This document shows positions 17,117 to 30,459 of a stretch of DNA of 64,000 nt, piece by piece. The position numbers were made by a program, and so were the translations under genes. The DNA comes from a phage. The notes below the pieces were generated by a model, which made no database searches, had not been told where the DNA came from, and was given only the letters and a program-made list of their open reading frames with translations. How positions within the stretch are numbered: position 1 is the first letter of the stretch; the number at the start of each line of letters is the position of its first letter. The stretch lies in sequence record NC_129898.1. One strand, given 5' to 3'.

Positions 17117-17454
17117 CAGAGATCATCATTTCAACTGCAGGGTATGTATTCCTGACAATCATTGCGCTGATCATCTTGGTGGTGGTGTATGGATTTGTTA
17201 TCCTGCCTATTCTTGAGACATTTAGTTTGTGTCGGTGTTGGAGAAAGGCTTACGGACCACAGCCGTGGAAAGACTGGCCTCATCTGTTACGCATAGCGTT
17301 CTCCTATGCCTATGATCACTCCAGCAGTGCATGCATAACTGGGTACCACGCCCACAATTGGAACTGGGAAGGGTTGGGGAGATGGAATGTTACAAAGACT
17401 ATACCTCTACGCATGTACAAAGGAAAAGGTGGGATTGATGGGAATACCTGTTAA
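17113..17454 (+). CDS. hypothetical membrane protein
   Basis: Hydrophobic N-terminal segment (TM helix). Confidence 0.45.
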   Translation: MTEIIISTAGYVFLTIIALIILVVVYGFVILPILETFSLCRCWRKAYGPQPWKDWPHLLRIAFSYAYDHSSSACITGYHAHNWNWEGLGRWNVTKTIPLRMYKGKGGIDGNTC

Positions 17455-18082
17455 AGACAGAAAAGTATGTGGTCGTGGAGTAAACGATTTAAAAGACAAA
17501 GTCCCAATGTACCAATCTGTTAATGGTAAGAGAGTACCAGAACCCCACTATGCTACATGGAAAGCATTATTCCAGAGGTGCTACGGCGATAACTCAAAGT
17601 ACCATACAGGTTGTGAAGTTGTAGAAGATTGGTGGTTGTTCTCAGAATTCTGGAAATGGATGGATACACAAGAGTGGAAAAGAGACGCTAAGAAGTTCAC
17701 TCTTGACAAAGATCTGAAAATCCCTGGAAACAGAATATACTCCCCAGAAACATGCATGTTTGTTCCACCACAAATAAACACCCTATTTGGCATAAGACAG
17801 GCAGCACGAGGGGATTTACCTTTGGGTGTGACACTTAGAAAAGATGTAAACAAGTATCTCGTGCATTGTCATCGAGATGGAAAAATTGTTCATGGCGGTC
17901 ATTTCGATGATCCACAGACAGCACACAAGGTGTGGCAAGAAATGAAACTTGAGGAGATGAAACTTCAGGCTATTAAAAACAAAGATGAGATTTGGCTGTT
18001 CGCCATTAAACGTGCAATAACTATCCTTGAGAATGATTTGAAAAATAATAAGGAGACTATAACATTGGTGAAATTTATTTAA
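17438..18082 (+). CDS. hypothetical protein, possible homing-endonuclease-associated DNA-binding protein
   Basis: HYATWKALFQRCYG...GCEVVEDWWLFSEFWKWM pattern recalled from phage HNH/AP2-type proteins; no catalytic motif identified. Confidence 0.4.
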   Translation: MGIPVKDRKVCGRGVNDLKDKVPMYQSVNGKRVPEPHYATWKALFQRCYGDNSKYHTGCEVVEDWWLFSEFWKWMDTQEWKRDAKKFTLDKDLKIPGNRIYSPETCMFVPPQINTLFGIRQAARGDLPLGVTLRKDVNKYLVHCHRDGKIVHGGHFDDPQTAHKVWQEMKLEEMKLQAIKNKDEIWLFAIKRAITILENDLKNNKETITLVKFI

Positions 18083-18410
18083 GATATTTATGGTAGTATT
18101 TATTTTAAAATTATAAAAATTTTAGGCGATGAGGGAAAATATGTAATGGATTTTCCCTTATTTATCAGATATTTGCAGATATTTGGAAATCCTTAGAAAA
18201 TCAGAAAATGGATCGAAAACTAAAATGGATTTTTTCAAGACAGGCACGATAAGCTGCGCTGCTCATTCTATCGTTCGCACCGTACTTCAAATCACCATTC
18301 CAGATTTTCCGCACATACTCTCACCCCTCTGCCAGAACTTTCCCAACTTACCTTCAGCCTTTTATGACAATAAGTTAATTATTATCAGTAAGTTTTGATA
18401 CATCTCTCTC

Positions 18411-18590
18411 AGTACTCGATCTGTTTTTCATTTCAAAGATTGGATTTTCTGAAAATTTTTCTCGATAAATTTTTCGGTACTCGATCTGTTTTTCGTTTTC
18501 TGAATCGGATTTTCTTGAAATTGGTCCAGCACCAGATCTAAAATTTTTGGGAACGAAAGCGATTTTTCGTTTTCAGAAATGGATTTTTAA
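18411..18590 (+). repeat. tandem imperfect direct repeats (about 60-70 bp period, 3 copies)
   Basis: GTACTCGATCTGTTTTTC[A/G]TTTC...GGATTTTCT at 18411 and 18477, diverged copy at about 18559. Confidence 0.6.
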
Positions 18591-18733
18591 AATTTCTATA
18601 TGGGAATATTTTATGAGGTATTATTTTATATAGAATTGTCACGGTAGGTAATTAGCATGCTAACTAAATTTATGAAATGCGAAAAGTTCTCATTTAGAAT
18701 TTTGAATGATAATCATTCTCGTTTGCAGAATAA

Positions 18734-18758
18734 CGGGCACCCCCGGTGATTGTCTCCC
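18734..18758 (+). repeat. 25-bp element CGGGCACCCCCGGTGATTGTCTCCC
   Basis: Near-copy at 18875-18894; exact inverted copy at 27133-27158. Confidence 0.6.
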
Positions 18759-19064
18759 GGCCCCTACTGCCCCGGCTTGTTATTATAGTATCACACAGGA
18801 CAAAGAAAGCAAGAAGTTTTTGCATAAATTTTTAGACGATAATGATAATCGTTCTCATTTCATGCAGCGCCCATCCCCGGTGGTTGTCTCCCCCGTCACC
18901 GGTGCCTGCCGTCCTTTCGATATGTATATTGTGCCACCTGGCGGGGCCGCTGTCAACACTTTTCAAAAAAATTCTAACCTGATGCGCTAACCGTTGCAAC
19001 CTGGCGGGGCCAGCCTGGTGGGCCTATGCTATAGGATAGTAACAATTGAAGAGGAGGTACAAAA

Positions 19065-19181
19065 ATGGAAGGTAATATGATCCCCCTGGAAAATGTAGCT
19101 ATTAATGACGCTGAGGCTATCGCCCTGGTTGAAAAGGCTATGGCGGGAGCGTTGGAACATAAAGAAGAGTACGAAAAATGA
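19065..19181 (+). CDS. hypothetical small protein (38 aa)
   Basis: GAGGAGG RBS before ATG; below ORF-track length cutoff. Confidence 0.4.
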   Translation: MEGNMIPLENVAINDAEAIALVEKAMAGALEHKEEYEK

Positions 19182-19243
19182 CGGTTAACCTGGCAGGGGC
19201 GGCGGCTGGGGAATTTTGCCCAAAAAATAATTTTAACTAGTGG

Positions 19244-19272
19244 TTGACAGCTCGGACAGTTTTTGTTATTCT
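19244..19272 (+). promoter_or_regulatory. sigma70-like promoter
   Basis: TTGACA - 17 nt - TATTCT upstream of ORF 19326. Confidence 0.5.
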
Positions 19273-19325
19273 TATCCTCGCAAGGTGAACAACACCACAC
19301 TAATTAACAGAGAGGATAAAAAATC

Positions 19326-19523
19326 ATGAACGCCTACGGAATCAAAGTACGTCGCAGCACTCGCCAGGTGGTCACCGATCAAATGATTTGCCAGGTGGAT
19401 GTGACCATCAACAACGGGCAAGGCCTTTATAAATTCCGTCGCGGTCAGAGCTATACCCGGCAACAGCTTAATCGTTGCGCCCTGACAAAAGGCCAGATCA
19501 ACCACTGGTTTAATAAAAAATAA
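19326..19523 (+). CDS. hypothetical small protein
   Basis: Promoter and GAGAGGA RBS upstream. Confidence 0.5.
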   Translation: MNAYGIKVRRSTRQVVTDQMICQVDVTINNGQGLYKFRRGQSYTRQQLNRCALTKGQINHWFNKK

Positions 19524-19526
19524 GTA

Positions 19527-19555
19527 TTGACATATAGGCCGACACCAAATACACT
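19527..19555 (+). promoter_or_regulatory. sigma70-like promoter
   Basis: TTGACA - 17 nt - TACACT upstream of ORF 19588. Confidence 0.5.
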
Positions 19556-19587
19556 AAAAGCACAAAAGACACTGAGAGGATAAAATC

Positions 19588-19986
19588 ATGAAAACCACCA
19601 CCTTTAATTTTGATAATGCGGACTTTTCTTTTTCTGATGTCAAAAACTGCCGCCGTGATCGTGGATTTTACAAGGCCTATAATCTGGTGGGCCTGGACGA
19701 TGACAATAATTTGCACGAAGTAGCTGAGATCCGGTATTATGCCGCCGCCAGCGGGAACACTTACTACTGCGTTTTTTGGATACACGACAACAAGAACAAT
19801 AAGTACGGCTATACTGGCGGCAAGGCGAGCGGTCACGGTTACGATAAAGCTAACGCAGCACTTGAGAGCGCATTAAATGCTATGGGGATCACTGCCGACG
19901 GCTGGATCTACGAAGAAGAGTTTTTGTCGGCACTTGCTGCCCATCTAGGGTATAAAAAGCACATTGTGACATGTGCCCACGAATAA
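19588..19986 (+). CDS. hypothetical protein (132 aa)
   Basis: Promoter and GAGAGGA RBS upstream. Confidence 0.5.
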   Translation: MKTTTFNFDNADFSFSDVKNCRRDRGFYKAYNLVGLDDDNNLHEVAEIRYYAAASGNTYYCVFWIHDNKNNKYGYTGGKASGHGYDKANAALESALNAMGITADGWIYEEEFLSALAAHLGYKKHIVTCAHE

Positions 19987-20068
19987 AAATCATTGACACG
20001 CTGCAAAATTCAAGTAAACTAGACACAAAAGGCGGGAATGTTTCCCGCCAACACAAAGGAAAAAGATC

Positions 20069-20473
20069 ATGAATAAGAACGTACGCCGCATCATGAACGA
20101 GTTGGCAAACGATGAAAAAATTATTGACATGCATTTGATCAACATTTGCCGCCGTTGTGTAACATATAACAACCGCGCCGCAAAAGCGCGTGAGATGAAC
20201 GCAAAAGGCACCTTAAAGCCATTCCAGGTGGTGGTAAAGGCCATTAAAAATGTAACTAATACGGCAAACCAGGTACAGGGGAACACCAACGAGAGTACCA
20301 ATATTGATCCGGCTTACATCATGAAACGGATCCGGACCTATAAGAACAAAGAGCAAGTGTATAATGTTATAGACTGGTTGGATTCTATGGGCGACGTGGT
20401 GTACAATAGATTCTCGGCAGCTATTGAGATCCAGCTTGACAGGTTGGACGGTAAAGTACTGAAAACTTATTAA
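20069..20473 (+). CDS. hypothetical protein (134 aa)
   Basis: Promoter 19992-20019, hairpin GGCGGGAATGTTTCCCGCC, CA-rich leader, RBS. Confidence 0.5.
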   Translation: MNKNVRRIMNELANDEKIIDMHLINICRRCVTYNNRAAKAREMNAKGTLKPFQVVVKAIKNVTNTANQVQGNTNESTNIDPAYIMKRIRTYKNKEQVYNVIDWLDSMGDVVYNRFSAAIEIQLDRLDGKVLKTY

Positions 20474-20521
20474 GTTTATTTTTAGATGGCCTTGACTCTA
20501 GGGCCATCAATAAAGTAAACT
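20474..20521 (+). repeat. conserved intergenic hairpin/promoter-like module (copy 1 of 4)
   Basis: ATTTATTTTTAGATGGCCTTGACTCTAGGGCCATCAATAAAGTAAAC; stem GATGGCC/GGCCATC with TTGAC in loop. Confidence 0.55.
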
Positions 20522-20553
20522 AGTCTCAACTAAGCGAAAAAGGGGGCTTTAAG

Positions 20554-20673
20554 ATGAGCACTACACGCCAATACACAAAGGTAACTATTATCGTTTGCGT
20601 TGTCGGTTACATCCTGGCGCAAATGTTAATGAGTAGCGCCAACAGTTTTGCAAAATTTTTCTTAAATTTTTAA
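20554..20673 (+). CDS. hypothetical small membrane peptide (39 aa)
   Basis: AAAGGGGG RBS; hydrophobic core. Confidence 0.35.
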   Translation: MSTTRQYTKVTIIVCVVGYILAQMLMSSANSFAKFFLNF

Positions 20674-20701
20674 TTGACAAGTAAATCTCAATAAGTATAC
20701 T
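20674..20701 (+). promoter_or_regulatory. sigma70-like promoter
   Basis: TTGACA - 16 nt - TATACT; near-identical promoter at 22512-22539. Confidence 0.55.
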
Positions 20702-20752
20702 TAAACACGTAAACGGGAAAACTTCCCAGAACACACAAAAGGAGAAAACACC

Positions 20753-21094
20753 ATGACTACTATGACCGCCGCAGAAAAAGCTATGCAGATCGCCGCGCTG
20801 AAAAAACAGATCGCAGACCTTGAGAACAAGATCGATAACTTTGAAATCGACGAGGACAAGTACGACGAAAACTATAATGAATGGCTAGACGAGATCCACG
20901 GCGAAATTATGATCGGTAACATTTCTTTTCTTCCGTCGCGTATCCTCAAAGAGTTAGATCCTATTGCTTACCGCTGCGGATTTAGCGATTACATCGATAG
21001 CCTGGATATTGAGGACGATGAAGAGTACCAAGAATTGCAGATAGAGCTGGGAGAAGTGAAAGAGGAGCTTTCAAAGCTGGAAGAGAACGAGTAA
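20753..21094 (+). CDS. hypothetical acidic coiled-coil protein
   Basis: Promoter, hairpin, leader, AGGAGA RBS. Confidence 0.5.
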   Translation: MTTMTAAEKAMQIAALKKQIADLENKIDNFEIDEDKYDENYNEWLDEIHGEIMIGNISFLPSRILKELDPIAYRCGFSDYIDSLDIEDDEEYQELQIELGEVKEELSKLEENE

Positions 21095-21095
21095 A

Positions 21096-21143
21096 ATTTA
21101 TTTTTAGATGGCCTTGACTCCAGGGCCATCAATAAAGTAAACT
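21096..21143 (+). repeat. conserved intergenic hairpin/promoter-like module (copy 2)
   Basis: Near-identical to 20474-20521. Confidence 0.55.
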
Positions 21144-21181
21144 TTACACTGTTAACACTGAACTAATGAGGAGTTAAAACT

Positions 21182-21427
21182 ATGGCAGCACTAATCACCA
21201 AATATTATGCGCCTACCAACACAAAAAGCGCCCGTATCATGGTAAAAGGCTTCGGACGTAAAAAGGTTTACGCCTGGGACTATTCCCTAGATATGGAAGA
21301 CAATTATACCAACGTAATGACCGATTTTATTAATGATCTGAATAAACAGATCTTAACCGACTACAAAGTGACCGATATTGCTTACATAGGTGAAGGCGGG
21401 ATCTGTTTTGTAGGCATTGTGAAATAG
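21182..21427 (+). CDS. hypothetical small protein
   Basis: GAGGAG RBS. Confidence 0.5.
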   Translation: MAALITKYYAPTNTKSARIMVKGFGRKKVYAWDYSLDMEDNYTNVMTDFINDLNKQILTDYKVTDIAYIGEGGICFVGIVK

Positions 21428-21470
21428 TTATTTTTCGGTGGTCCTGGTTGCAGGGCCATCTATAAAGATA
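21427..21470 (+). repeat. conserved intergenic hairpin module (diverged copy 3)
   Basis: TTATTTTTCGGTGGTCCTGGTTGCAGGGCCATCTATAAAG. Confidence 0.4.
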
Positions 21471-21502
21471 ATTTATTAACACCATGAAAGGAGAAAGTAC
21501 AC

Positions 21503-21856
21503 ATGATCAGCGGGGCTAGTTTTATTATTGGCGCTATTGCTACGGCTTTAATTGTAAACAAGATCCAGGATAAAAAGGAAAGAGGAAGTACCGCCCTTGC
21601 AGAATATCCATTTTGGACATTTAACGATAACGAAGATTATATTATAAAGTATAAAAATAAAGAAGGCGACCAAGTAACACCGCGACCGATCCCGGCTTAC
21701 AAAATGCAGGAAACACTATACCGCTTGGAGGCGGGGGGCGCAAAAATTGTTGACTTTTGGGGATACGACCACACAGATCAGGAAGTTATAAAGCGCCGTA
21801 TCCGGGCTATTCAGGCCAATATTGAGGTTAACAAGGGGGGAATATATGAAAATTAA
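21503..21856 (+). CDS. hypothetical membrane-anchored protein
   Basis: N-terminal hydrophobic helix; AAGGAGA RBS. Confidence 0.5.
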   Translation: MISGASFIIGAIATALIVNKIQDKKERGSTALAEYPFWTFNDNEDYIIKYKNKEGDQVTPRPIPAYKMQETLYRLEAGGAKIVDFWGYDHTDQEVIKRRIRAIQANIEVNKGGIYEN

Positions 21857-22043
21857 TTTCGAGAAAATTGTAAAGCGCCCTCATGATTCCGAAGAGTTGC
21901 CAGAACGCCGACAGCGCAACAATAAACTGAATAAGCCAAAAAGGTTTGGGAAGATCTGGCGGAATCATTATGATCGTAAATTGCCCGGCCTACTTTTGGA
22001 ACGTGAACGACAGGCAGAACGATACCGCCATAAAGACAAATAA
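21846..22043 (+). CDS. hypothetical basic small protein
   Basis: ATG 21846 after AAGGGGGG; Arg/Lys-rich. Confidence 0.4.
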   Translation: MKINFEKIVKRPHDSEELPERRQRNNKLNKPKRFGKIWRNHYDRKLPGLLLERERQAERYRHKDK

Positions 22044-22051
22044 CAACCAAC

Positions 22052-22080
22052 GCCCCGCCATTGTGCGGGGCTTTTTATTT
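22052..22080 (+). terminator. intrinsic terminator
   Basis: CCCCGC-CATTGT-GCGGGG hairpin followed by CTTTTTATTT. Confidence 0.55.
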
Positions 22081-22261
22081 CTATCCTACGAATAGCGCCC
22101 CTGGTTGGCCCTGTAAGCGCCAAAAAGGCCCCCACCTATGCAATCGCCCCCTTTAACCTGAAAACATCGCTCAGGGCCGTTTTATAGCGTTAAAAATATC
22201 ATTGACATCGTCAACAGGTTAGCTATACTAACCACATCAAAGAGAGAAAGGAGTAAACGCC

Positions 22262-22522
22262 ATGCGTAAATTAAAAAATTTTGATAAAGTTGATGTTATC
22301 CTGAATAATTTTTACTACTGCAACAACAAGGCTATTTGGTGGCGGGATAGTTCCACCGATAAAGTCAAGGCGCGCTTTCTTCAGGGGCACTGGCAAGGCC
22401 GCCCAGTGATTAAAATCATGGGGCAATTGGTAGCGTTTAAAAATTGCCGCCGTGTTGATGACGTTGAGGAGATTTTAAACATTTTGCGCCACAATAATTT
22501 AAAAAATAGTGTTGACAAGTAA
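22262..22522 (+). CDS. hypothetical small protein
   Basis: Promoter-like TTGACA at 22203; GGAG RBS. Confidence 0.45.
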   Translation: MRKLKNFDKVDVILNNFYYCNNKAIWWRDSSTDKVKARFLQGHWQGRPVIKIMGQLVAFKNCRRVDDVEEILNILRHNNLKNSVDK

Positions 22523-22539
22523 ATCTCAATAAGTATAAT
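22512..22539 (+). promoter_or_regulatory. sigma70-like promoter (consensus -10)
   Basis: TTGACA - 16 nt - TATAAT; followed by hairpin GGCGGGAAAACTTCCCGCC. Confidence 0.6.
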
Positions 22540-22596
22540 TAAACACACAGGCGGGAAAACTTCCCGCCACTAACAAAGAAAACAGGAGAAAATATC

Positions 22597-23220
22597 ATGA
22601 CCACCGTTAACATTACCACAGGTTACAATTTATCTTTCGACGTGCTGACCGACGAACAAAAAGAAAAAGCCATTGAAATGGTCCGCGAAAGAGAAGAACG
22701 CAGCGGGGATGATTTTTTCGCAGAAAATGTAATTGATTACTACAAAGAATATATCTTTCCAGAGTACGGCCTTGAGGATACCGAAGTACATTGGTCCGGC
22801 TTTTGGTGTCAAGGCGATGGCGCATCGATTAGTGCTGAAAATGTAGACTTAGAAAAATTCTTGCGTAAAGTCAAGGCCCTGACCAAGTTCAGATCAATTC
22901 GTCACTTGTTCGGCACAATGCACGATGGCGAACTATCCGCCAGTGTTGAACGCGACAAGTACAGCCATTACAGCCATGAAAACACTGTAAGCGGGTACAT
23001 TGATACCACTTGGATAGATCTGACCGCCAAACAAGAAAACAAAGTGGAAGATCTGGAAGAATTGATCACCGAGACGGTACGGGAGCTATCCCGCAAGGTT
23101 TACGTAGACCTTGAGGAGGCCTATCTAGAACAGTTCACCGCAGAAAACCTGATCGGCCTTATTCAGGCCAATGATTGGCGGTTTGATGTCGATGAATATG
23201 GTGAGATGACTTTTTCATAA
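22597..23220 (+). CDS. hypothetical acidic protein (207 aa)
   Basis: Largest ORF of the small-gene block; promoter, hairpin, leader, AGGAGA RBS. Confidence 0.55.
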   Translation: MTTVNITTGYNLSFDVLTDEQKEKAIEMVREREERSGDDFFAENVIDYYKEYIFPEYGLEDTEVHWSGFWCQGDGASISAENVDLEKFLRKVKALTKFRSIRHLFGTMHDGELSASVERDKYSHYSHENTVSGYIDTTWIDLTAKQENKVEDLEELITETVRELSRKVYVDLEEAYLEQFTAENLIGLIQANDWRFDVDEYGEMTFS

Positions 23221-23313
23221 ATAAAGTGTTGCAATAACCTAAAAACCTGCTATATTAAAACTCAAGGCGGGCGAGACGTTTGCCCGCCAACACAAAACAA
23301 AGAGGATAACATC

Positions 23314-23694
23314 ATGAAAAATACTACCAAGGCTATTGACACCGTTATGTTTAACCTGGTTACATTCCGTGAAGATATGAAAGATCTTCCGCGTGAAACA
23401 GTGTGCGACCATATCGAAAACTATCGCAAACTAATCAAAGAGTTGCCTTTAAAACGTGATCAATATGCGGCTAACGCCATGCTTAATGCCATGATCAAAA
23501 AGATGATCCAGTGTGATTTAACCCTGGCCTATGATTATGCAGGCGGTCGTTTTGCAGTATACAATCAGCCCGTGCCCGGTATGAGTACCACCGAAGAATT
23601 GCACGCGCTCAATCTAAAACAGGACGTGTGGGATAGTATGCCTCGCGTGGTGGTATGGGTAGAAAGCGGAAAGATTTACGGCGATAATTTTTAA
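23314..23694 (+). CDS. hypothetical protein (126 aa)
   Basis: Promoter-like TTGCAA/TATATT, hairpin GGCGGGCGAGACGTTTGCCCGCC, RBS. Confidence 0.5.
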   Translation: MKNTTKAIDTVMFNLVTFREDMKDLPRETVCDHIENYRKLIKELPLKRDQYAANAMLNAMIKKMIQCDLTLAYDYAGGRFAVYNQPVPGMSTTEELHALNLKQDVWDSMPRVVVWVESGKIYGDNF

Positions 23695-23758
23695 TCAGGT
23701 AGCAGGCGGCATATTTGCCGCCTTATTGTTGATCAGAACTGCAAAAGAGGTACATAGA

Positions 23759-24130
23759 ATGGAATTTATTATTTTGGCTGTATTGGTTGCCTTATTTAAC
23801 GCCTGGATCGCTGGCAAGATGGGAAGATCCGCCTTTTTATGGTTTATTATATCTATTTTCCTGGGGGTGGTTGCAACTATTGTATTGGTTATCCTTGCAA
23901 TTGTTGACAAGGGGAATAATAGAAAGGGTAAAGTATTTTCAGACCTGTACGACGCTCAAACTTTTGTTAACGCCTATTATAGTGATCTCCCAGTCTCCCT
24001 ACGTTGCAGCCTTGCACAACAGGTTTTCGATGAAGCTAAAACCAGAGACCACGCCCATGAGATTTGTTTAACTGAGGCGGATCGCTTATTTGAGAGGAAT
24101 AGAAAATATGTGGGCCAGCCGTTTAAATAA
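23759..24130 (+). CDS. hypothetical membrane protein
   Basis: Two predicted TM helices; ATG 23759 after AAGAGG. Confidence 0.45.
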   Translation: MEFIILAVLVALFNAWIAGKMGRSAFLWFIISIFLGVVATIVLVILAIVDKGNNRKGKVFSDLYDAQTFVNAYYSDLPVSLRCSLAQQVFDEAKTRDHAHEICLTEADRLFERNRKYVGQPFK

Positions 24131-24349
24131 TACCACGTTAATTAATCCATTTAGTGAAGATTTGAGGCCAGCCGCCTGGCGGGATGGATTCAATAACGAA
24201 AAATTTACTTTTAGGCCTGATCTTGAGGAATTTTATAACAATGGATCGAACAACGACAGAGATAATTTTTCTTGCGGTGTGTGTCGTGATCGGACTACTG
24301 GGAGCCATTGCAAACCACGTAACCGCTAACAGAAGGAAAGGGGGAGACG

Positions 24350-24469
24350 ATGACACCCAAGGATAAGCCCCGCACCGATAAGGCGCGCCGTGTTATGGTA
24401 TGGCTGGAGATCATCGCCCTTGAAATATTGTTAGGCGTAGGGATGTATTTTATCGCCGTACGTACCTGA
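24350..24469 (+). CDS. hypothetical small membrane peptide (39 aa)
   Basis: AGGGGGAG RBS; hydrophobic C-terminus. Confidence 0.35.
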   Translation: MTPKDKPRTDKARRVMVWLEIIALEILLGVGMYFIAVRT

Positions 24470-24615
24470 TAACGGCCCCCGATCCCTGGGGGCCTGACTT
24501 TTTTCAAAAAAATTTTTCTTCCGGGGTGTTGCAATCCGGTCCGGGATATGGATAATAACAATCAACGGGGAGACACTCCCCACCACACAGACAAAGTTCC
24601 AAAAGGAGAAACAAA

Positions 24616-24816
24616 ATGAGCAACAATATCCGCGTTATTAATTTCAAAAAAGAAGAAAAAATCGCTGTGCTGGTTGATGGTCAAGAAATATTCAAGGGGT
24701 ATTATGAAGATCATCAGGCGGCGATCAGTATTACCCGCGTAATTGGTTACCATAATTTTTACCCTCAAGGCGCTGAGGCAGCAGTAAAACGAATTAAAGA
24801 GATCGTAGGCCTGTAA
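24616..24816 (+). CDS. hypothetical small protein
   Basis: Hairpin GGGGAGACACTCCCC, CA-rich leader, AAGGAGA RBS. Confidence 0.5.
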   Translation: MSNNIRVINFKKEEKIAVLVDGQEIFKGYYEDHQAAISITRVIGYHNFYPQGAEAAVKRIKEIVGL

Positions 24817-24817
24817 A

Positions 24818-24866
24818 ATTTATTTTTAGATGGCCTTGACCCCAGGGCCATCAAATAAAGTAAATT
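24818..24866 (+). repeat. conserved intergenic hairpin/promoter-like module (copy 4)
   Basis: Near-identical to 20474-20521. Confidence 0.55.
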
Positions 24867-24908
24867 TAAACCCTGCTAAAATAATCAGTGCAAAAAGGAG
24901 CAATGATC

Positions 24909-25208
24909 ATGTTTATACCCGCCAATAATCTTTATTTCTTTGATGGTCAGATCGTAGACGGCGTGGAAGTTGAGATCACTGGATGTCAAGGCGGCCAGGT
25001 AATGATCTTCCGCAATAGTGCCTTTAACGATCATTTTATTACAATGACTGTGGAAGTTAAAAAGCTGGATGATAAGAAAACACTCATTGACTATTCCGTG
25101 AAAGATCATCCAGACTACCACATGATCTATGGTGATTTGTGCATTGTTGACCGTGACAAGGTGGGCGGCATTGTGATCGCTATTGTGAACGATGTTTTCT
25201 CTGAATAA
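24909..25208 (+). CDS. hypothetical small protein
   Basis: AAGGAG RBS; start ATG 24903 or 24909. Confidence 0.45.
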   Translation: MFIPANNLYFFDGQIVDGVEVEITGCQGGQVMIFRNSAFNDHFITMTVEVKKLDDKKTLIDYSVKDHPDYHMIYGDLCIVDRDKVGGIVIAIVNDVFSE

Positions 25209-25430
25209 TTCCGGCAAATGATGCAAAATAAGGCCCATGGCAGGGCCTGCAGCGATATAATCACACAAAGGCTATGCGGTTGCATGGCCTTTTTTATTTT
25301 AGCGCTACAGCGGCCCCCAAGGCGTTTAAAAAATTTTTAAAAGTACTTGCATCAAGTCCGACAATATGGATAATAAGACTTATCAGGGGGCGGCCCCCAA
25401 TCATTAACCGGATAGATAGGAGTTAAAATC

Positions 25431-25715
25431 ATGGCTATTGTTACTGTTGGCGATGTAGTAGAAATGGAAGCAAAATACTTAAAAGCGGGTATGCATATCC
25501 TACGCAACGATCTTGAACTAGTCCTGACAATGGTCGACTATAATCCCGGTCAGGATTATCCAAGCATCGACTACTTTTTCCAGTATGTTGATGAAGAATT
25601 AAAAGAGGATGAGGCTTATCAGGGTGAATTTTGTAATTTCTTTTGCCCTGACGAGATTGTAAAAGTTATCTATCAACCTGGCGTACCTTTCCCGTTGCAC
25701 GCCATCAATAAATAA
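25431..25715 (+). CDS. hypothetical small protein
   Basis: Hairpin GGGGGCGGCCCCC, leader, AGGAG RBS. Confidence 0.5.
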   Translation: MAIVTVGDVVEMEAKYLKAGMHILRNDLELVLTMVDYNPGQDYPSIDYFFQYVDEELKEDEAYQGEFCNFFCPDEIVKVIYQPGVPFPLHAINK

Positions 25716-25778
25716 GCCTGGCGGGGCCGAAAAAGGCCCCTCCTGAAAATATGAAAAAATAAAGATAGGTGAATCATC

Positions 25779-26012
25779 ATGATGGAACAAATTAAACGCG
25801 CTGAGGCTATTAATGGTAATGTGATCTATTTTGTCAGCAAAAACGAAAAAGGCGTACCCTATGCGGCGGTAATAGTACAGCCTGACGGCGATTATTGGTG
25901 CACTGTGTACGGCGCTTATTCTTTTGGGCGTCCAGTGCATGATAAAATTTTGAAAGTAGCGAACCCTACCGGGAAAAATATCACAGCAGAAAAATTTTTT
26001 GAAAATAGTTGA
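25779..26012 (+). CDS. hypothetical small protein
   Basis: ORF after hairpin GGGGCC-GAAAAA-GGCCCC. Confidence 0.45.
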   Translation: MMEQIKRAEAINGNVIYFVSKNEKGVPYAAVIVQPDGDYWCTVYGAYSFGRPVHDKILKVANPTGKNITAEKFFENS

Positions 26013-26076
26013 CAACAAACAACAATCTAACAAAGCATAATACATAAGGCGGCAATGATGCCGCCAACATGACAGA

Positions 26077-26340
26077 ATGAGAAACATCATTTACAGACTG
26101 ACAAAACGCAACATTATGATCGCCACCGTGATCGCTTGCCTTTTCGCTTTCGTGAGTAACGCAACGTTTAACGCCGTGGGCGGGGCGATGTTTAATGCTG
26201 GCAGCGTTTCAACAGCTAACACAATGATCGATTGTTTGCAACTTTTCTTTTATGTTGCCTTTCGTTTAAAAATAGCTTGCAAGGTAGACCGTTTTGATTT
26301 ACCTTTCATTTGTGGCGGCGTGATCGCTATCGTATGTTAA
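26077..26340 (+). CDS. hypothetical membrane protein
   Basis: Hydrophobic segments; hairpin GGCGGCAATGATGCCGCC upstream. Confidence 0.45.
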   Translation: MRNIIYRLTKRNIMIATVIACLFAFVSNATFNAVGGAMFNAGSVSTANTMIDCLQLFFYVAFRLKIACKVDRFDLPFICGGVIAIVC

Positions 26341-26613
26341 GGATCAGAAGATGGGAAAACTCTCAATTCTGTTGTTTTATCAAAAACCTTGACAATATCA
26401 GAATGTACAGACGGTTAAAAATAATTGTTGACACCAGGCGCGGATCTGGTAAAGTGTACGACATAGGGCGGGGCAATAAGGCAACGCCCATTAATGATGG
26501 TGGAATCATGTTAGAAAAAATTTTCACGGTTGTAGTAGTTGGCATGGCATTATCGGTTGGAGTGGTTGCAACTATGGCTAACATGATCCTATCTTCCCAC
26601 GGTATCGGGTAAG

Positions 26614-26838
26614 GTGAAACAAATGATCACGAACAAAACAGGGAAAACGGAATTTTTACGCGGCTTGCAAATAGGCAAGCCTGAGATCTGGCATTGCACT
26701 AAAACACCACGTGACGAAATGAAAGACTTTACCGCCACGCTGAAGCGGGTAAAAATATCCATTACGCAGAAAAAAGCCTTGATAGTGGTGGAAGGTGAGA
26801 TCCCTCAAACCGTTGTTATTGTTGAGCGTACAGCATAG
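26614..26838 (+). CDS. hypothetical small protein
   Basis: ORF; start GTG 26614 or ATG 26623. Confidence 0.4.
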   Translation: MKQMITNKTGKTEFLRGLQIGKPEIWHCTKTPRDEMKDFTATLKRVKISITQKKALIVVEGEIPQTVVIVERTA

Positions 26839-26927
26839 TTTAATCTATACCGTACGCCCCATTGACTAACAAAGCATAAGCAGGCGGCGGTGACCGCCTT
26901 GAACGCAACAGAAAGAGAATAGAAAAC

Positions 26928-27062
26928 ATGAGAAAGATAATTATTACCATGGGGATCGTGGCGGCAATGTTGGCGATCTTTCCCTTTATGGTTAGGTATG
27001 TGCTGATCAGTGTTGTCCTGATAGGCAGTGATCTATTGGAAACGGTTGGCAACTGGTTTTAA
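26928..27062 (+). CDS. hypothetical small membrane peptide (44 aa)
   Basis: Hairpin GGCGGCGGTGACCGCC, leader, AGAGAA RBS; hydrophobic. Confidence 0.35.
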   Translation: MRKIIITMGIVAAMLAIFPFMVRYVLISVVLIGSDLLETVGNWF

Positions 27063-27132
27063 GATAATAAACAGGGCTTGAAATGGTCCTGTTTTTTGTT
27101 ATACTTATCTCACGGGTGGCACCTGGCGACGG

Positions 27133-27158
27133 GGGGAGACAATCACCGGGGGTGCCCG
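27133..27158 (-). repeat. inverted copy of the 25-bp element at 18734
   Basis: GGGGAGACAATCACCGGGGGTGCCCG is the reverse complement of the 18734-18758 element. Confidence 0.6.
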
Positions 27159-27265
27159 TTATATAAAAAACTATAAAAACAGTTGACATCTGCCAGGTGG
27201 TTAGGTAACATTTATCTTGAAGGGGCAAAAGTGCCCACACAACAACCGGAAGAGAGGAAAACATT

Positions 27266-27538
27266 ATGTCAAGCTGGATTAATCAAGAAATCGAATCACG
27301 TTTTAATGCTATTTGGGATCTCATCGAAAAAGAGGACGGAACATCAAGCCCTTATCTCAATAACCTGGAATTTCATTTTGTGGAAGCGATGAACGCAGAA
27401 CATGATCACGAAGGTGGCGCGGATGAGTTCGCTCAAGGGTATGGCTTCAACAATGCCAACGAAATGATTGAGGCGGTTGTACTTCAGGCTGAGGAAGATT
27501 ATCAATTAAAAACACTTGAATTTTGCCGCCGTAAGTAA
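27266..27538 (+). CDS. hypothetical acidic small protein
   Basis: Promoter TTGACA 27184, hairpin GGGGCAAAAGTGCCC, leader, AGAGAGGA RBS. Confidence 0.5.
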   Translation: MSSWINQEIESRFNAIWDLIEKEDGTSSPYLNNLEFHFVEAMNAEHDHEGGADEFAQGYGFNNANEMIEAVVLQAEEDYQLKTLEFCRRK

Positions 27539-27599
27539 TAAGATAATGACACTGGCCAAAAGGCCCACCAAACCAGAACCCCATAAAGAGGAAAACATC

Positions 27600-27863
27600 A
27601 TGAAACGCCTTGATCAGCTCAAACTAGTTCAGTACATGGCCTACAAAGTTATTGAAGTCCAAAAAGGTAGTAAAAAGGAGGTTTGCGAGAAAGCGTACAA
27701 GATCTTTACTCGTAAAAAAGATGATTGGATGTTGCGCCAGACCAAAAAGGCTGATATCCTGGGGTACCTGGAAGAAGAGATCCGGCTTGAAGAGCAAGAA
27801 GAGATCCGCCGAAGTGAGGCAGATTATCAGGCAGCTTGGGAAAGCTGGATGAGCAACAAATAG
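27600..27863 (+). CDS. hypothetical small protein
   Basis: AAAGAGGA RBS; last gene of + arm. Confidence 0.5.
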   Translation: MKRLDQLKLVQYMAYKVIEVQKGSKKEVCEKAYKIFTRKKDDWMLRQTKKADILGYLEEEIRLEEQEEIRRSEADYQAAWESWMSNK

Positions 27864-27877
27864 TACAACATTATCAA

Positions 27878-27906
27878 GGGGCCTTAAGGCCCCTTTCTTT
27901 TTTGTT
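27878..27906 (+). terminator. intrinsic terminator ending the + strand arm
   Basis: GGGGCC-TTAA-GGCCCC hairpin followed by TTTCTTTTTTGTTTT. Confidence 0.7.
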
Positions 27907-28511
27907 TTCTCTTTTCCTACCATAAACGGCCCCGCCTGGCAAGTGGAATAATTAACGAGCCATCAATCCCGCACACTGTACAAATATACATGTAAAATAG
28001 TTATTGCATAACCTTTCATTGTGTGGTAGCGGTGCTATTTTTACCTGTTTTCTCTCCCAAAATTGCACGTAATGCAGCTATTGCACAAAATTTAACCTGA
28101 TGCACATCTTCAGTATACTGTCAACAATTAAAAACCCTTATAAGTCATACACTTACACAAACCAAAAAGCGCGTCCTACGTGAAAAATCGGGTGTAACTA
28201 TAGCCGACAGATCTCAGAATCCACGTACGATCACCATTCTATAGCCTGCAAAGTATTTATTCCAACCACAGAATAACGGAATAGTCAATACCTGTACAAA
28301 ATAATTATTCGTACAAACTGCATAACATAAACCTGCCCAGGTGTCAACATTTTTCGTAAACAGTTAGAAATTGTCACGATAGGTTACTATAATCAGAGAA
28401 ATATTTAGTCGTCTAATGTTTACTGTACATAACTATACTGACTGGAATCATTAGATGACTAAGAGAAAGATAAGAAATAGTTAACAATGTAATTGTTTTA
28501 CCTGTAACAAT

Positions 28512-28688
28512 AAGGCAACTATGCAAACGAATGGCATGGCGCGACGGAGTCGCGACATAATATAAAAGCAGTAACAATCACCCCCGTGATAGTTTGTCTG
28601 CAATCTATTAATCAGATCATAGTTGCCTTGTATTTAGTTAATCATGACATAACAAGCAAGGCAACTATAGATCTTCTAATAGTTGCCC
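28512..28688. repeat. paired inverted repeats AAGGCAACTAT / ATAGTTGCC
   Basis: AAGGCAACTAT at 28512 and 28658; reverse complement at 28619 and 28679; palindrome GCGAC-GGA-GTCGC at 28541. Confidence 0.6.
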
Positions 28689-28761
28689 TGCTTTTATATT
28701 ATGTCATAGAAACGCCCGAAGGGGTGACCTAGTCACCTGGCATAGCCAGCGAAATATTATT

Positions 28762-28821: not shown

Positions 28822-30459
28822 AAACTCGGGAGCATAGCCCTCGTCTCAAGGGTGTTATCATGCAAACGAATGTCATGGCTTATCATCTATGCGTAAACTG
28901 TCAGGGTGTAGACTATTCAGGCGTAAACAGTCTATGCGGGAACAATCTATACGTGAACAGTGAAATATGAAATAATAACAGTCGTTATTGTATCGAAAGT
29001 GTATAAGGTGTCAGATTATGGCATATTGTGTGACATTGTGTCAGACAAGTTTTTCTCCTCTTTGTCAAGTGCTGCATGGAAAATTTACAATCTGGTATGG
29101 TAGCATTTTTGCGGCCCTGTTTACATTCAGGAGTGTATGTATAACCCTTGTTGTGTGGGCGTTTAGACGTCTGGACGGTCAGAAGTCTGCAGGTTAATAT
29201 CTAATCTATTGGTCGCTAACTATATCCCCCACAAATAATAAGAAATGCAATTGTTATATGCGTAAACAGTAACTCATGTTATCAATCCCTGTATGTATCG
29301 CCAGTGGTGCGCATAATGGGTATTATGTTAAATTGCCCGTAATGATAACAGTTCTCACAATGATAGGTATTCTCATTCACCCCCACAAAATAGATTGCAA
29401 ATGTTGTGCCACTGTGTGAACGGCCTCGCCTATTAATTTGCCTCACTGCTCCGATATTTGAGAATTGTTATAAGAATGAGAAGTATTCCCATTTCGTCCG
29501 CCTGGCAGCGCTCCTGTAGGTCAGGTCAAAATCGTGGTAGAACTGGACCCCTTCAGATATTTCTAGCTGACTCTTCAGGCCTGTGTGGGAAAAGCCAACC
29601 TCTCCGGCGGGGCAGGGGGGTCAATTAAAAAATTTACGTAGGGTACGAAGCGCTCTTCAGGTAAGGCATGTATTAGAGGATGAAACCCTCTTCAGGTGAT
29701 GATATTTGTGGGTGTGATATTTGCTGGAAAGCCAGATATGACGGGACTACCGGCGGGGATGGGGTAGTATAGGCAGGGAAAATGTGGAGAATGTGGTTGG
29801 TAAATTTATCAGGCAGGTAGAGTATGGGATATGTTACAGGTATGTTAAATATGGAGGTAGGATATTTGTAAGATTTGTGTGTAAAATCAAAGACTTAAGT
29901 GGTGTTGTGGTATTTTCTATAAATAATTCAAGTTTAATAGGTAATATTTGTCTCTATCCACTTTGTGGGGTAAACAGATTCTAATTGAATTGGTTTACAA
30001 GTGTATATAAAGTATACAAATTAAAGATATAAGAAACCCCCCTCCCCCTTCGGCTACCATTCACCTTTTCCTCTGACTGGTACTTAAACACTTATTCAGA
30101 CTCTTCAGGTTATCACCCATATACTATATGGCAGTGACTGGTGTCCTCTGGCCCCTCTTTCGTCACCCGTCCGCTTCGCCATGCTAATGCCATAGCTAAA
30201 GGTTCGGTTGTTCACCCTGTTCACTCAGGTGTATCTCCATACCCCTTCAAACCGAAGAGAACAGAAAACCCGAATTACTCGGTAAAAGAAAAGAGAAGAA
30301 CTTAATTTTATCAGGATAGGCAAGAATGTCAAGGCATGACTGCTCACTAAACAAGCAAACAGTCATGTGTGGGAGGTAAGTGATTGTGGTGGTAGGAAAT
30401 TTAGTTGAAAGATGTGTTATAGGTGCTTCCAGCACTTTAGCCGGGCAGCTAATTGTGTG

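What the first reader, a model, noticed from the sequence alone, without database searches (positions are those of the whole stretch)
18734..27158. Exact 25-bp inverted repeat brackets the small-gene block
CGGGCACCCCCGGTGATTGTCTCCC at 18734 (near-copy at 18875) has an exact reverse-complement copy at 27133, 8.4 kb away, enclosing most of the promoter-rich block. Inverted repeats of this length can mark invertible or mobile segments or common regulatory sites, but no recombinase is inside.
Basis: seen in the sequence. Interest (0 to 1): 0.55.

Follow-up and report, generated by a model that had tools for sequence, protein, structure and literature searches.

The report
Promoter-linked repeat flanking phage early genes
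The exact inverted repeat is real, but it is not a DNA switch: its arms are copies of an undescribed conserved non-coding motif that sits just downstream of outward-facing promoters at both edges of the early-gene block of an rV5-like E. coli phage.

Summary
The repeat is confirmed and is longer than reported: 29 exact bases at 18730-18758 and 27134-27162 (inverted), with a diverged third copy at 18872-18892. None is expected by chance. The window is an rV5-like coliphage (Vequintavirus, 96% identical to FV3).

The arms bracket the block of small early genes beside the 459-bp direct terminal repeat. An invertible or mobile segment is not supported:
- None of 273 related phage records carries the inverted junction.
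- No recombinase-sized gene lies inside the block.
- In relatives the two arms share as few as 6 exact bases.

The arms are the core (GGAGACAAWCACCGG...TGCCCGYTAT) of a non-coding element found 2-3 times per genome. It holds the same positions and mutual orientation in several genera of Vequintavirinae and Stephanstirmvirinae, and it also occurs in uncultured phages.

In 41 distinct copies the element lies about 25-35 bases downstream of a sigma-70-type promoter, always in the same orientation. In two metagenomic cases a terminator follows, giving a small-RNA-like unit.

My best reading is a transcribed, promoter-proximal leader or small-RNA motif. A DNA operator is the main rival. Secondary structure is not supported by covariation. 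Near-consensus Fur boxes and conserved iterons lie next to the arms. The function is unknown and no description was found in the literature.

The parts
18730..18758 (.). Arm A: exact 29-nt repeat ATAACGGGCACCCCCGGTGATTGTCTCCC, as read on the + strand. The element's proposed sense strand is the - strand.
18727..18781 (-). Unit A: predicted transcribed element, ACAAGCCGGGGCAGUAGGGGCCGGGAGACAAUCACCGGGGGUGCCCGUUAUUCU
   Evidence: nhmmer hit 18726-18788 (-). Alignment A4. Its fold is no better than shuffles, z +0.47.
18782..18796 (-). Promoter-like -10 region of unit A. It holds overlapping hexamers TATAAT (18787->18782), TACTAT and GATACT, the last preceded by TGT. The implied transcription start is about 18775-18780.
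   Evidence: sequence. Conserved A and T of the -10 in alignment A4. Promoter scoring.
18872..18892 (.). Arm B: diverged copy of the core, CATCCCCGGTGGTTGTCTCCC on the + strand
18858..18921 (-). Unit B: predicted transcribed element starting near A18921
   Evidence: nhmmer hit 18862-18923 (-). Fold z -2.0.
18928..18956 (-). Promoter-like site of unit B: TTGACA-17-CACAAT with TG, 10 of 12 matches
27134..27162 (.). Arm C: exact reverse complement of arm A, GGGAGACAATCACCGGGGGTGCCCGTTAT on the + strand
27112..27166 (+). Unit C: predicted transcribed element starting at A27112. It lies between a terminator and the next gene's promoter (27183-27211).
   Evidence: nhmmer hit 27100-27167 (+). Fold z -2.24. 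Alignment A3.
27069..27105 (+). Terminator hairpin (27069-27094) with an embedded promoter-like site of unit C: TTGAAA-16-TATACT with TG (27078-27105)
   Evidence: The arrangement is conserved in phAPEC8, CR3, SPLA5a, ZCKP1 and KKP_3264.
18702..18720 (.). Fur-box-like palindrome next to arm A. By my count it matches 15 of 19 positions of the E. coli Fur consensus GATAATGATAATCATTATC.
   Evidence: The consensus is from my own knowledge. The stretch is conserved across genera.
18838..18856 (.). Fur-box-like palindrome next to arm B, matching 17 of 19 positions of the Fur consensus
   Evidence: 0.07 matches expected by chance
18402..18587 (.). Three 47-nt direct repeats (iterons) that contain CTCGATC and GGATTTT, in the AT-rich non-coding region that units A and B face
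   Evidence: The iteron YCTCGATCG recurs in the same region in other genera.
19066..27863 (+). Block of small early genes, which the arms enclose up to 27162
29044..29502 (.). Stretch equivalent to the 459-bp direct terminal repeat of phage Gotham, that is, the physical genome end. It contains four more Fur-box-like sites at 29343-29491.
   Evidence: PhageTerm evidence for a 514-bp repeat in the related KPP-1 comes from PMC9862379.

Best explanation
The two arms, and the third copy at 18872-18892, are the conserved core of a roughly 55-nt non-coding element. The element lies immediately downstream of its own sigma-70-type promoter. The genome has three such promoter-plus-motif units.

- Units A and B sit in the 1-kb non-coding region upstream of the early block. 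They fire leftward, away from the block, into an AT-rich region with iterons.
- Unit C sits near the other end of the block. It fires rightward, as the leader of the last early transcription unit, towards the terminal repeat.

The inverted repeat therefore reflects opposite promoter directions at the two borders. It is not a recombination substrate.

I infer that the motif works in the transcript or on the transcribing polymerase. It would be a promoter-proximal leader or small-RNA motif whose sequence (GGAGACAAWCACCGG...UGCCCGYUAU) is read by a protein, by RNA polymerase or by another RNA. In that way it would control the fate of these few early transcripts, for example by read-through of the many terminators, by stability, or by priming at a nearby origin.

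Shown: the repeat, its conservation, its copy number, its placement and its fixed orientation behind promoter-like sequences.
Inferred: that it is transcribed, and what it does.

The exactness of the 29-nt match is most simply explained by recent homogenisation (gene conversion) between copies A and C in this lineage.
For: 1. Conservation. The arm A stretch (18702-18760) is 78-92% identical in non-coding DNA of Certrevirus, Seunavirus, Mydovirus, Phapecoctavirus and others. The arm C stretch is conserved in a similar way.

2. Architecture. An inverted A/C pair 7-11 kb apart also exists in ESCO13, KB57, 4MG, CR3 and phAPEC8. Complete rV5-like genomes hold 2-3 copies.

3. Promoter linkage. In the alignment of 29 units, the A and T of a TAnnnT hexamer are at least 90% conserved, and an A lies 7 nt downstream of it. 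In 41 distinct units the best sigma-70-like score upstream averages 9.3 in the GGAGACAA orientation (28 of 41 score >=9). In the opposite orientation it averages 6.6 (5 of 41). All three window units have scanned promoter-like sites.

4. Independent contexts in metagenomic phages.
- L195 has three terminator-promoter-motif-promoter-gene cassettes built like arm C. It also has one promoter-motif-terminator unit of about 90 nt.
- L245 has TTGACA-17-TATAAT, then the motif, then a terminator-like hairpin.

5. Strand. In the outer stem there are 42 G-U cells against 20 A-C cells. This mildly favours RNA of this strand.

6. Homogenisation. A and C share 29-30 exact bases in two separate lineages, this window and uvig48919. 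Their close relatives Gotham and CR3 share only 17 and 12.
Against: - There is no transcript evidence. No transcriptome of these phages was found.
- Secondary structure is not supported. The outer stem pairs in 71.6% of cells against 33-47% when slid, but covariation is no better than shuffles.
- A candidate inner stem pairs as well with flanks taken from other sequences as with its own (3.92 against 3.77).
- Unit A of the window folds no better than shuffles, and both strands fold about equally well.
- Units A and B have no terminator or gene downstream, so their products would be undefined.
- Arm C was not detected in PVP-SE1 or phiTE, and nothing was detected in Av-05.
- Fixed orientation behind promoters could also arise if promoter and operator were duplicated together as one cassette.
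Confidence: 0.48

Rival explanations
1. DNA operator. The conserved roughly 35-bp core is a double-stranded binding site for a phage-encoded or host regulator. The regulator sits at about +15 to +50 of three promoters and switches them off or on together. The orientation is inherited from duplication of promoter-operator cassettes.
For: - Primary sequence is conserved strongly, while stems show no covariation.
- There are exactly 2-3 copies per genome, each next to a promoter.
- Protein-binding-type palindromes (Fur-like boxes) lie next to the copies.
- In L177 the motif is followed 44 nt later by its own reverse complement, as in a two-site operator.
Against: - The motif keeps one orientation and a similar distance behind promoters whose hexamers differ (TTGAAA/TATACT, TTGACA/CACAAT, TTGACA/TATAAT, TTCACT/TATAAT).
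- In two contexts a terminator follows, which gives a discrete short transcription unit.
- The core is not palindromic.
- No candidate binding protein was identified. The block proteins have no Pfam family.
Confidence: 0.25
2. Replication-linked promoters. Units A and B feed transcription, and a G-rich RNA that can form an R-loop, into the adjacent AT-rich iteron region. That region would be an origin of replication, as in T7 (promoters 1.1A and 1.1B), T4 oriF/oriG or ColE1 RNA II. This is a special case of the transcribed-element reading.
For: - Units A and B are two tandem promoters that face a region of 32% G+C with three 47-nt repeats.
- The iteron YCTCGATCG is conserved in the same place in Seunavirus, Mydovirus and Certrevirus.
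- The RNA would begin with runs of G (GGGGGAGAC).
- The T7, T4 and ColE1 comparison is from my own knowledge.
Against: - Unit C and the L195 cassettes sit directly upstream of genes, not of iterons.
- GATC density is only modestly raised.
- No initiator protein was identified.
- The rV5 authors could not place an origin by skew analysis (PMC3606486).
Confidence: 0.12
3. Structural DNA boundary of a staged genome entry, analogous to the injection-stop region of T5. The inverted pair, the host-protein boxes and the repeat-rich non-coding DNA would hold or organise the first roughly 11 kb that enters the cell.
For: - Layout: terminal repeat (29044-29502), then about 2 kb of non-coding DNA, then small early genes, then a 1-kb repeat-rich non-coding region 10-11 kb from the end.
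- T5-like phages have a conserved 131-bp inverted pair 1.8-4.3 kb apart. It carries DnaA boxes and lies in the first-step-transfer DNA beside a 1.7-kb non-coding region (10.1101/866236).
- Here Fur-like boxes accompany the arms and the terminal repeat.
- Vequintaviruses and T5-like phages are both highly sensitive to daunorubicin (PMC13250531).
Against: - There is no sequence similarity to T5.
- DnaA boxes are not enriched: 6 found against 8.2 expected, and none near the arms.
- Two-step injection has never been reported for these phages.
- The terminal repeat is 459 bp, not 10 kb.
- The motif's tight link to promoters is not explained.
Confidence: 0.07
4. Sense-antisense RNA pairing between the arms. 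Because all early genes are on the + strand, + strand RNA through arm A and + strand RNA from arm C would be perfectly complementary over 29 nt. They could pair in trans, for example as an RNase III target.
For: - The complementarity is 29 nt and exact.
- In L177 the motif has a local 17-nt antisense partner in the same orientation of transcription.
Against: - A/C complementarity is not conserved: 17 nt in Gotham, 12-13 in CR3 and uvig10279, and 6-9 in KB57, 4MG, ESCO13 and phAPEC8.
- The + strand promoter candidate at arm A (TTGAAT-18-CAGAAT) loses the key A of its -10 in phiTE and KB57.
Confidence: 0.05
5. Site-specific inversion or a mobile cassette bounded by terminal inverted repeats.
For: An exact 29-nt inverted repeat 8.4 kb apart.
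Against: - None of 273 records has the inversion junction.
- The block is collinear with flanks on one strand in relatives.
- There is no recombinase or transposase. Only one ORF exceeds 140 aa, and it has no Pfam family.
- Arm identity decays to 6 nt in related genera while the positions are kept.
- A third, direct copy exists.
Confidence: 0.02

Closest known systems
T5-like phages: inverted pair IRC-spacer-IRD and IRD'-spacer-IRC' in the first-step-transfer region (candidate injection stop signal)
   Same: - A conserved inverted pair a few kb apart brackets poorly conserved small early genes near a genome end.
- It lies beside a large non-coding region rich in repeats.
- It is accompanied by boxes for a host DNA-binding protein.
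- Its function is unproven (10.1101/866236).
   Different: - There is no sequence similarity.
- The arms here are about 30-55 nt, not 131 bp.
- The boxes resemble Fur sites, not DnaA sites.
- The terminal repeat is 459 bp rather than 10 kb.
- Each arm here follows a promoter in a fixed orientation.
- Two-step injection is not known for rV5-like phages.
Lambda nutL/nutR and HK022 putL/putR (promoter-proximal antitermination RNA sites)
   Same: There are a few copies per genome. Each lies a short way downstream of an early promoter and is mutually inverted because the promoters diverge. Sequence is conserved between copies. They act in the transcript (from my own knowledge).
   Different: - The promoters here face outward from the two ends of an 8-kb block rather than diverging from one control region.
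- No boxA consensus is present. CGCUAUUC only resembles CGCUCUUA.
- No hairpin supported by covariation was found.
- No N-like protein was identified.
- Antitermination was not tested.
PeSL cassettes of T4-type phages (early promoter plus stem-loop repeats between small genes)
   Same: Repeated promoter-associated GC-rich elements lie in a variable region of small early genes. They show signs of exchange between copies. The PeSL description is from my own knowledge.
   Different: - PeSLs are many and co-directional with the genes. Here there are only three units, and two of them are antisense to the gene direction.
- Here a roughly 30-nt primary sequence is conserved across subfamilies.
- The repeat families inside the block (20461-20521 family, 20674-20739 family) are closer to PeSLs than the arms are.
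Invertible segments of Mu (G), P1 (C) and Salmonella (H), with gix/cix/hix sites
   Same: Short inverted repeats flank several kb of phage DNA.
   Different: - There is no serine recombinase gene.
- No inverted isolates were found.
- The arm is not built from two dyad half-sites.
- Arm identity is not maintained in relatives.
Fur-regulated promoters of Enterobacterales
   Same: Matches to the 19-bp Fur consensus score 17 of 19 and 15 of 19. The second overlaps a TTGAAT-18-CAGAAT promoter-like site, as Fur boxes do.
   Different: The boxes are in a strictly lytic phage. They recur in the terminal repeat. They lie downstream of the better-supported promoters. Binding by Fur was not tested, and a phage protein could be the ligand.

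Membership tests
Site-specific invertible segment (Gin/Cin/Hin type) | Inverted repeat sites flanking the segment | tested here: met
   29-nt exact inverted repeat, 8375 nt between the arms
Site-specific invertible segment (Gin/Cin/Hin type) | Recombinase gene in or next to the segment | tested here: not met
   - Only one ORF in the block is longer than 140 aa (207 aa). It has no Pfam family and a PHROG of unknown function.
- The neighbouring 231-aa ORF matches HNH endonuclease PHROGs.
- Evidence. Only the largest ORFs were scanned.
Site-specific invertible segment (Gin/Cin/Hin type) | Both orientations found among isolates or reads | tested here: not met
   The inversion-junction query matched 273 records, and none covered it in one place. 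Sequencing reads were not available.
Transposon or IS with terminal inverted repeats | Transposase inside, and presence or absence polymorphism of the whole unit | tested here: not met
   No transposase-like family was found. The arms and the block are at orthologous positions in several genera.
T5-type injection-stop inverted repeats | Conserved inverted pair in the terminal early region beside a large non-coding repeat region | tested here: met
   This is an analogy of layout only, with no sequence similarity.
T5-type injection-stop inverted repeats | Paired DnaA boxes in each arm | tested here: not met
   TTWTNCACA occurs 6 times against 8.2 expected, and none is near the arms.
T5-type injection-stop inverted repeats | Two-step DNA transfer | not testable with these tools
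   This needs infection experiments.
nut/put-type promoter-proximal antitermination RNA | Located downstream of early promoters, in the sense orientation | tested here: met
   Promoter-like sites lie upstream in the sense orientation in 28 of 41 units, against 5 of 41 in the antisense orientation.
nut/put-type promoter-proximal antitermination RNA | Conserved RNA secondary structure | tested here: inconclusive
   - Complementarity is present: 71.6% of cells pair against 33-47% when slid.
- There is no covariation above shuffles.
- The inner stem is not specific.
- Fold z-scores range from -2 to -4 for some units and reach +0.5 for window unit A.
nut/put-type promoter-proximal antitermination RNA | Read-through of downstream terminators that depends on the element | not testable with these tools
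   This needs reporter or transcript data.
Any Rfam RNA family | Match to a curated covariance model | tested here: not met
   No match was found at the arms in the window at the gathering threshold or at E<=10. None was found in seven relatives at E<=1.
Fur-box-controlled promoter | Match to the 19-bp Fur consensus overlapping a promoter | tested here: inconclusive
   - A 17 of 19 match lies at 18838-18856. A 15 of 19 match at 18702-18720 overlaps TTGAAT-18-CAGAAT.
- The key A of that -10 is lost in phiTE and KB57.
- Fur binding was not tested.

The most novel reading that the evidence does not exclude
The GGAGACAAWCACCGG motif would be a new class of phage promoter-proximal RNA, like put or nut, that works through a conserved host component such as RNA polymerase. 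It would mark a few early transcripts for special treatment, such as reading through the dense terminators of the early region or priming at the adjacent iteron region. In Vequintavirinae this would be gated by host Fur, and so by iron status, through the near-consensus Fur boxes beside each unit and in the terminal repeat. The two borders of the early block would then form one control system for the start of infection.
Probability: 0.12. Interest if true: 0.75.

Novelty: new variant of a known kind. Interest (0 to 1): 0.45.

Why it matters
rV5-like and phAPEC8-like phages are common in therapeutic and biocontrol collections, yet their early programme is almost wholly uncharacterised.

This finding gives a short element that is strongly conserved across two subfamilies and some uncultured phages. 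It is tied to promoters at both borders of the early region, and it lies beside near-consensus Fur boxes and conserved iterons. That provides concrete, mutable targets for asking:
- how early transcription is organised
- where replication starts
- whether host iron status feeds into a lytic infection

It also removes a tempting but wrong reading, a phase-variable early region. Annotators may wish to mark the element, because several records call spurious ORFs across it.

Tried and rejected
- **Rfam.** No family matched at the arms in the window or in seven relatives.
- **Host origin.** A blastn search of arm A against 5,426 E. coli genomes found no match. The large database makes this test insensitive to matches shorter than about 20 nt.
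- **Broad 15-mer scan of IMG/VR.** Almost all hits were chance matches, with 2 of 120 real. A 20-base pattern gave 11 real stretches.
- **Scan of bacterial genomes.** One hit, in a Faecalibacterium MAG, was not confirmed by the profile.
- **Outer stem.** Covariation was not significant.
- **Inner stem around the core.** Its own flanks paired no better than foreign flanks. Earlier impressions of compensatory changes (CCGG/CCGG to CUGG/CCAG and others) are therefore anecdotal.
- **Pairing of the -10 region with the core.** It was seen in L195 and some C-type units but is not general.
- **Other signals.** DnaA boxes are not enriched. For a sigma-54 promoter the spacing is wrong, judged by eye. 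Resemblances to SRP RNA, RNase P RNA and the 16S 3' end are short and consistent with chance, and Rfam was negative.
- **Second conserved module in other genera.** The roughly 95-nt unit-B equivalent folds with only 2 compensatory pairs and was not pursued.
- **Literature.** No description of the element, of Fur boxes in these phages, or of their transcriptome was found. The rV5 paper only marks a 'non-coding' box.

Full report
**Observation**

The 25-mer is present exactly at 18734-18758 (+) and 27134-27158 (-). No match appeared in 100 shuffles. The perfect inverted repeat is 29 nt long: 18730-18758 and 27134-27162, with 8375 nt between the arms. The near copy is real: 18872-18892 is 90% identical to 18738-18758. 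The 18-nt core occurs only three times in the window, and a profile search finds nothing else.

**What the window is**

The window is an rV5-like coliphage of the genus Vequintavirus. It is 96.3% identical to FV3 over 97% of 18000-28000, and 251 phage records match. The map in window coordinates is as follows.

| Coordinates | Feature |
|---|---|
| up to 18082 | + strand genes |
| 18083-19065 | non-coding region that holds arms A and B |
| about 19066-27863 | small + strand genes of unknown function, with many promoter-like and terminator-like sites |
| 27134-27162 | arm C, between a terminator (27069-27094) and the promoter of the next gene (27183-27211) |
| about 27900-30100 | about 2.2 kb of non-coding DNA |
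| beyond that region | - strand genes |

Phage Gotham is annotated with a 459-bp repeat at both ends of its record. That repeat aligns to window 29044-29502. A 514-bp terminal repeat was shown by PhageTerm for the related KPP-1 (PMC9862379). The bracketed block is therefore the early region that adjoins a physical genome end.

**Not an invertible or mobile segment**

- I built the sequence that an inversion between the arms would create. It matched 273 phage records, and in none did one place cover 80% of it. The two halves always matched separately.
- Relatives are collinear with the flanks on one strand.
- Only one ORF inside the block exceeds 140 aa. It has no Pfam family and a PHROG of unknown function.
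- Both arms occupy orthologous positions in other genera (see below).
- The exact identity between A and C is not maintained: 29 nt here, 17 in Gotham, 12-13 in CR3 and an rV5-like metagenomic genome, and 6-9 in KB57, 4MG, ESCO13 and phAPEC8. Recombination sites would need a shared core.

**What the arms are**

The 58 nt around arm A (18702-18760) are 78-92% identical in non-coding DNA of Certrevirus (CR3, phiTE, POP15), Seunavirus (PVP-SE1, 4MG), Mydovirus (KB57) and Phapecoctavirus (phAPEC8). In the loci fetched from these genomes the stretch lies about 550-600 nt downstream of the preceding annotated gene. The arm C stretch is conserved in phAPEC8-like phages, CR3, SPLA5a, ZCKP1 and Serratia phage KKP_3264, together with its terminator and the sequence TGTTATNCT.

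A profile of the unit maps an inverted A/C pair in these genomes:

| Genome | Distance between A and C |
|---|---|
| ESCO13 | 9.8 kb |
| KB57 | 6.9 kb |
| 4MG | 9.0 kb |
| CR3 | 10.6 kb |
| phAPEC8 | 8.9 kb, across the record ends |

The C copy was not detected in PVP-SE1 or phiTE, and nothing was detected in Av-05. Complete rV5-like genomes contain the core in three places, sometimes two.

**Orientation and promoters**

I read each unit so that the core is GGAGACAAWCACCGG. In that orientation every unit is preceded by a sigma-70-type promoter-like site.

- In the window these are TTGAAA-16-TATACT with TG for C, TTGACA-17-CACAAT with TG for B, and overlapping GATACT, TACTAT and TATAAT hexamers for A.
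- In an alignment of 29 units, the A and the T of a TAnnnT hexamer are at least 90% conserved. So is an A seven bases after it, which is the expected start.
- Over 41 distinct units the best promoter score upstream averages 9.3 in this orientation (28 of 41 at 9 or more). In the opposite orientation it averages 6.6 (5 of 41).
- The alternative promoter on the other strand at arm A (TTGAAT-18-CAGAAT) loses the essential A of its -10 in phiTE and KB57.

Units A and B thus point leftward, out of the block and antisense to the genes. Unit C points rightward, with the genes. This is why the copies are inverted.

**Structure tests**

Each unit is locally self-complementary. An outer stem between the first transcribed bases and UGCCCGYUAU pairs in 71.6% of cells, against 33-47% when the partner is slid. 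However, covariation does not exceed shuffles. There are 42 G-U cells against 20 A-C cells, a mild preference for RNA of the GGAGACAA strand.

| Unit | Fold z-score |
|---|---|
| C | -2.2 |
| B | -2.0 |
| CR3 A | -2.4 |
| Gotham C | -4.0 |
| window A | +0.5 |

The opposite strands fold about as well. A candidate inner stem around the core pairs equally well with flanks from other sequences. What is conserved is therefore mainly primary sequence. A defined RNA fold is not demonstrated.

**Relatives outside the cultured phages**

A pattern scan of metagenomes, filtered with the profile, gave 15 further distinct units.

- **Contig L195.** This 41.8-kb contig comes from an unrelated uncultured phage. 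A protein from it is at most 42% identical to anything in the phage collection. It has three cassettes of terminator, embedded promoter, motif, second promoter and gene, the same build as arm C. It also has one inverted copy that forms a promoter-motif-terminator unit of about 90 nt.
- **L245.** TTGACA-17-TATAAT is followed by the motif and then by a terminator-like hairpin.
- **L157.** Two promoters flank the motif before a gene.
- **L177.** The motif is followed 44 nt later by its exact 17-nt reverse complement.

These independent contexts are the best evidence that the motif is transcribed in the sense orientation.

**Neighbours of the arms**

- **Fur-box-like palindromes.** Each of A and B is adjacent to a palindrome that matches the E. 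coli Fur consensus. The match is 17 of 19 at 18838-18856 (0.07 expected by chance). By my count it is 15 of 19 at 18702-18720. Four weaker sites lie at the edge of the terminal repeat, at 29343-29491. Such boxes accompany the arms in all genera examined.
- **Iterons.** To the left of unit A lies a region of 32% G+C with three 47-nt repeats. A related iteron, YCTCGATCG, recurs 2-5 times at the same place in other genera. This suggests a protein-binding array, possibly an origin of replication.

**Why the match is exact**

The five bases after CACC vary among rV5-like phages (GGGGG or GGGCC), and A and C carry them in every combination. Two separate lineages, this window and a Certrevirus-like metagenomic genome, have A and C identical over 29-30 nt. 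Their close relatives do not. I infer occasional gene conversion between the copies. Crossovers, which would invert the block, are not seen.

**Mechanism**

My best reading is a promoter-proximal element that works in the transcript or on the transcribing polymerase (confidence about 0.5). The rivals, with their approximate confidence, are:

- a double-stranded operator (0.25)
- an origin-priming variant (0.12)
- a T5-like boundary for staged DNA entry (0.07)
- trans pairing of the two arms as RNA (0.05)
- inversion or mobility (0.02)

Transcription itself and any function are inferred. No transcriptome of these phages was found.

**Comparison with known systems**

- **T5 first-step-transfer region.** This is the closest layout. 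T5-like phages have a conserved inverted pair with host-protein boxes beside a non-coding repeat region (10.1101/866236). There is no sequence similarity, DnaA boxes are absent here, and the promoter linkage differs.
- **nut and put sites.** The closest functional analogy, from my own knowledge, is nutL/nutR of lambda or putL/putR of HK022. The structure test is inconclusive, and antitermination is untestable here.
- **Other libraries.** No Rfam family matches, and no E. coli homologue was found.
- **Literature.** None was found on this element. The rV5 genome paper only draws a box labelled non-coding (PMC3606486).

**Verdict**

The element is a conserved and, so far as I could find, undescribed non-coding motif family of moderate interest. 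Its function needs experiments.

Noticed in passing
window 8146-8433 (+): Group I catalytic intron. The Rfam RF00028 match scores 75.6 bits, E 2e-17, over the full model length. It lies inside the + strand gene region upstream of the finding.
   Followed up: no
window 18702-18720, 18838-18856, 29343-29491: Near-consensus Fur boxes lie in a strictly lytic phage. They sit beside arms A and B (15 of 19 and 17 of 19 matches), and four weaker copies lie at the edge of the terminal repeat. Similar palindromes (AATGAGAATCATTCTCATT) occur beside the arms in Certrevirus, Seunavirus, Mydovirus and Phapecoctavirus. Whether host Fur or a phage protein binds them is unknown.
   Followed up: partly
window 18402-18587; L002-L008 about 900-1500: An iteron array lies in the AT-rich non-coding region: three 47-nt repeats here, and YCTCGATCG 2-5 times in other genera. 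It is a candidate origin of replication or other protein-binding array.
   Followed up: partly
window 29044-29502: This stretch is equivalent to the 459-bp direct terminal repeat annotated at both ends of phage Gotham. The window therefore spans the junction of the physical genome ends. About 2.2 kb of repeat-rich non-coding DNA surrounds it (27900-30100), including GCGTAAACAGT repeats and an 18-bp perfect inverted repeat at 28554-28571 and 28688-28705.
   Followed up: partly
window 20461-20521, 21083-21143, 21413-21473, 24805-24865; 20674-20739, 22512-22577; 20031-20065, 22550-22584, 23270-23304: Repeat families inside the early block combine a promoter with a palindrome over the -35 (GATGGCCTTGACTCTAGGGCCATC), or combine a promoter with a 5' hairpin (GGCGGGAAnnTTCCCGCC). 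They resemble the promoter-stem-loop cassettes of T4-type phages.
   Followed up: no
window 17387-18082 (+): The 231-aa ORF just before the non-coding region matches only the C-terminal half of HNH endonuclease PHROG 953 (positions 194-402 of 420; E 5e-65). It may be a truncated homing endonuclease.
   Followed up: no
window 28572-28600 (-): A possible fourth, degenerate copy of the core: CAGACAAACTATCACGGGGGTGATTG, read on the - strand (by eye; the overlapping match is I16). The profile search did not detect it. It may be chance.
   Followed up: no
L002-L008 about 1618-1745 (-): In genera other than Vequintavirus, the place of unit B is taken by a roughly 95-nt block, ACGCCACCCCACGGCGAAAAGGCGGGGCUAACGUACCGGGC...GGUCGGAAGGUGGAUCGCCGGUAG. 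It is almost invariant across two subfamilies and follows a TTGAC-type promoter. Two pairs show compensatory changes, and there is no Rfam match.
   Followed up: partly
phage collection records MG0656xx: About 20 records named 'Campylobacter phage', with host C. jejuni, are 84-97% identical to this rV5-like coliphage region. Their host attribution looks doubtful.
   Followed up: no
L001 2028-2315; L002 1776-2207; L003 1794-1976 and others: Several public records annotate hypothetical-protein ORFs across or beside units A and B, within what appears to be conserved non-coding DNA. These ORFs are probably spurious.
   Followed up: no
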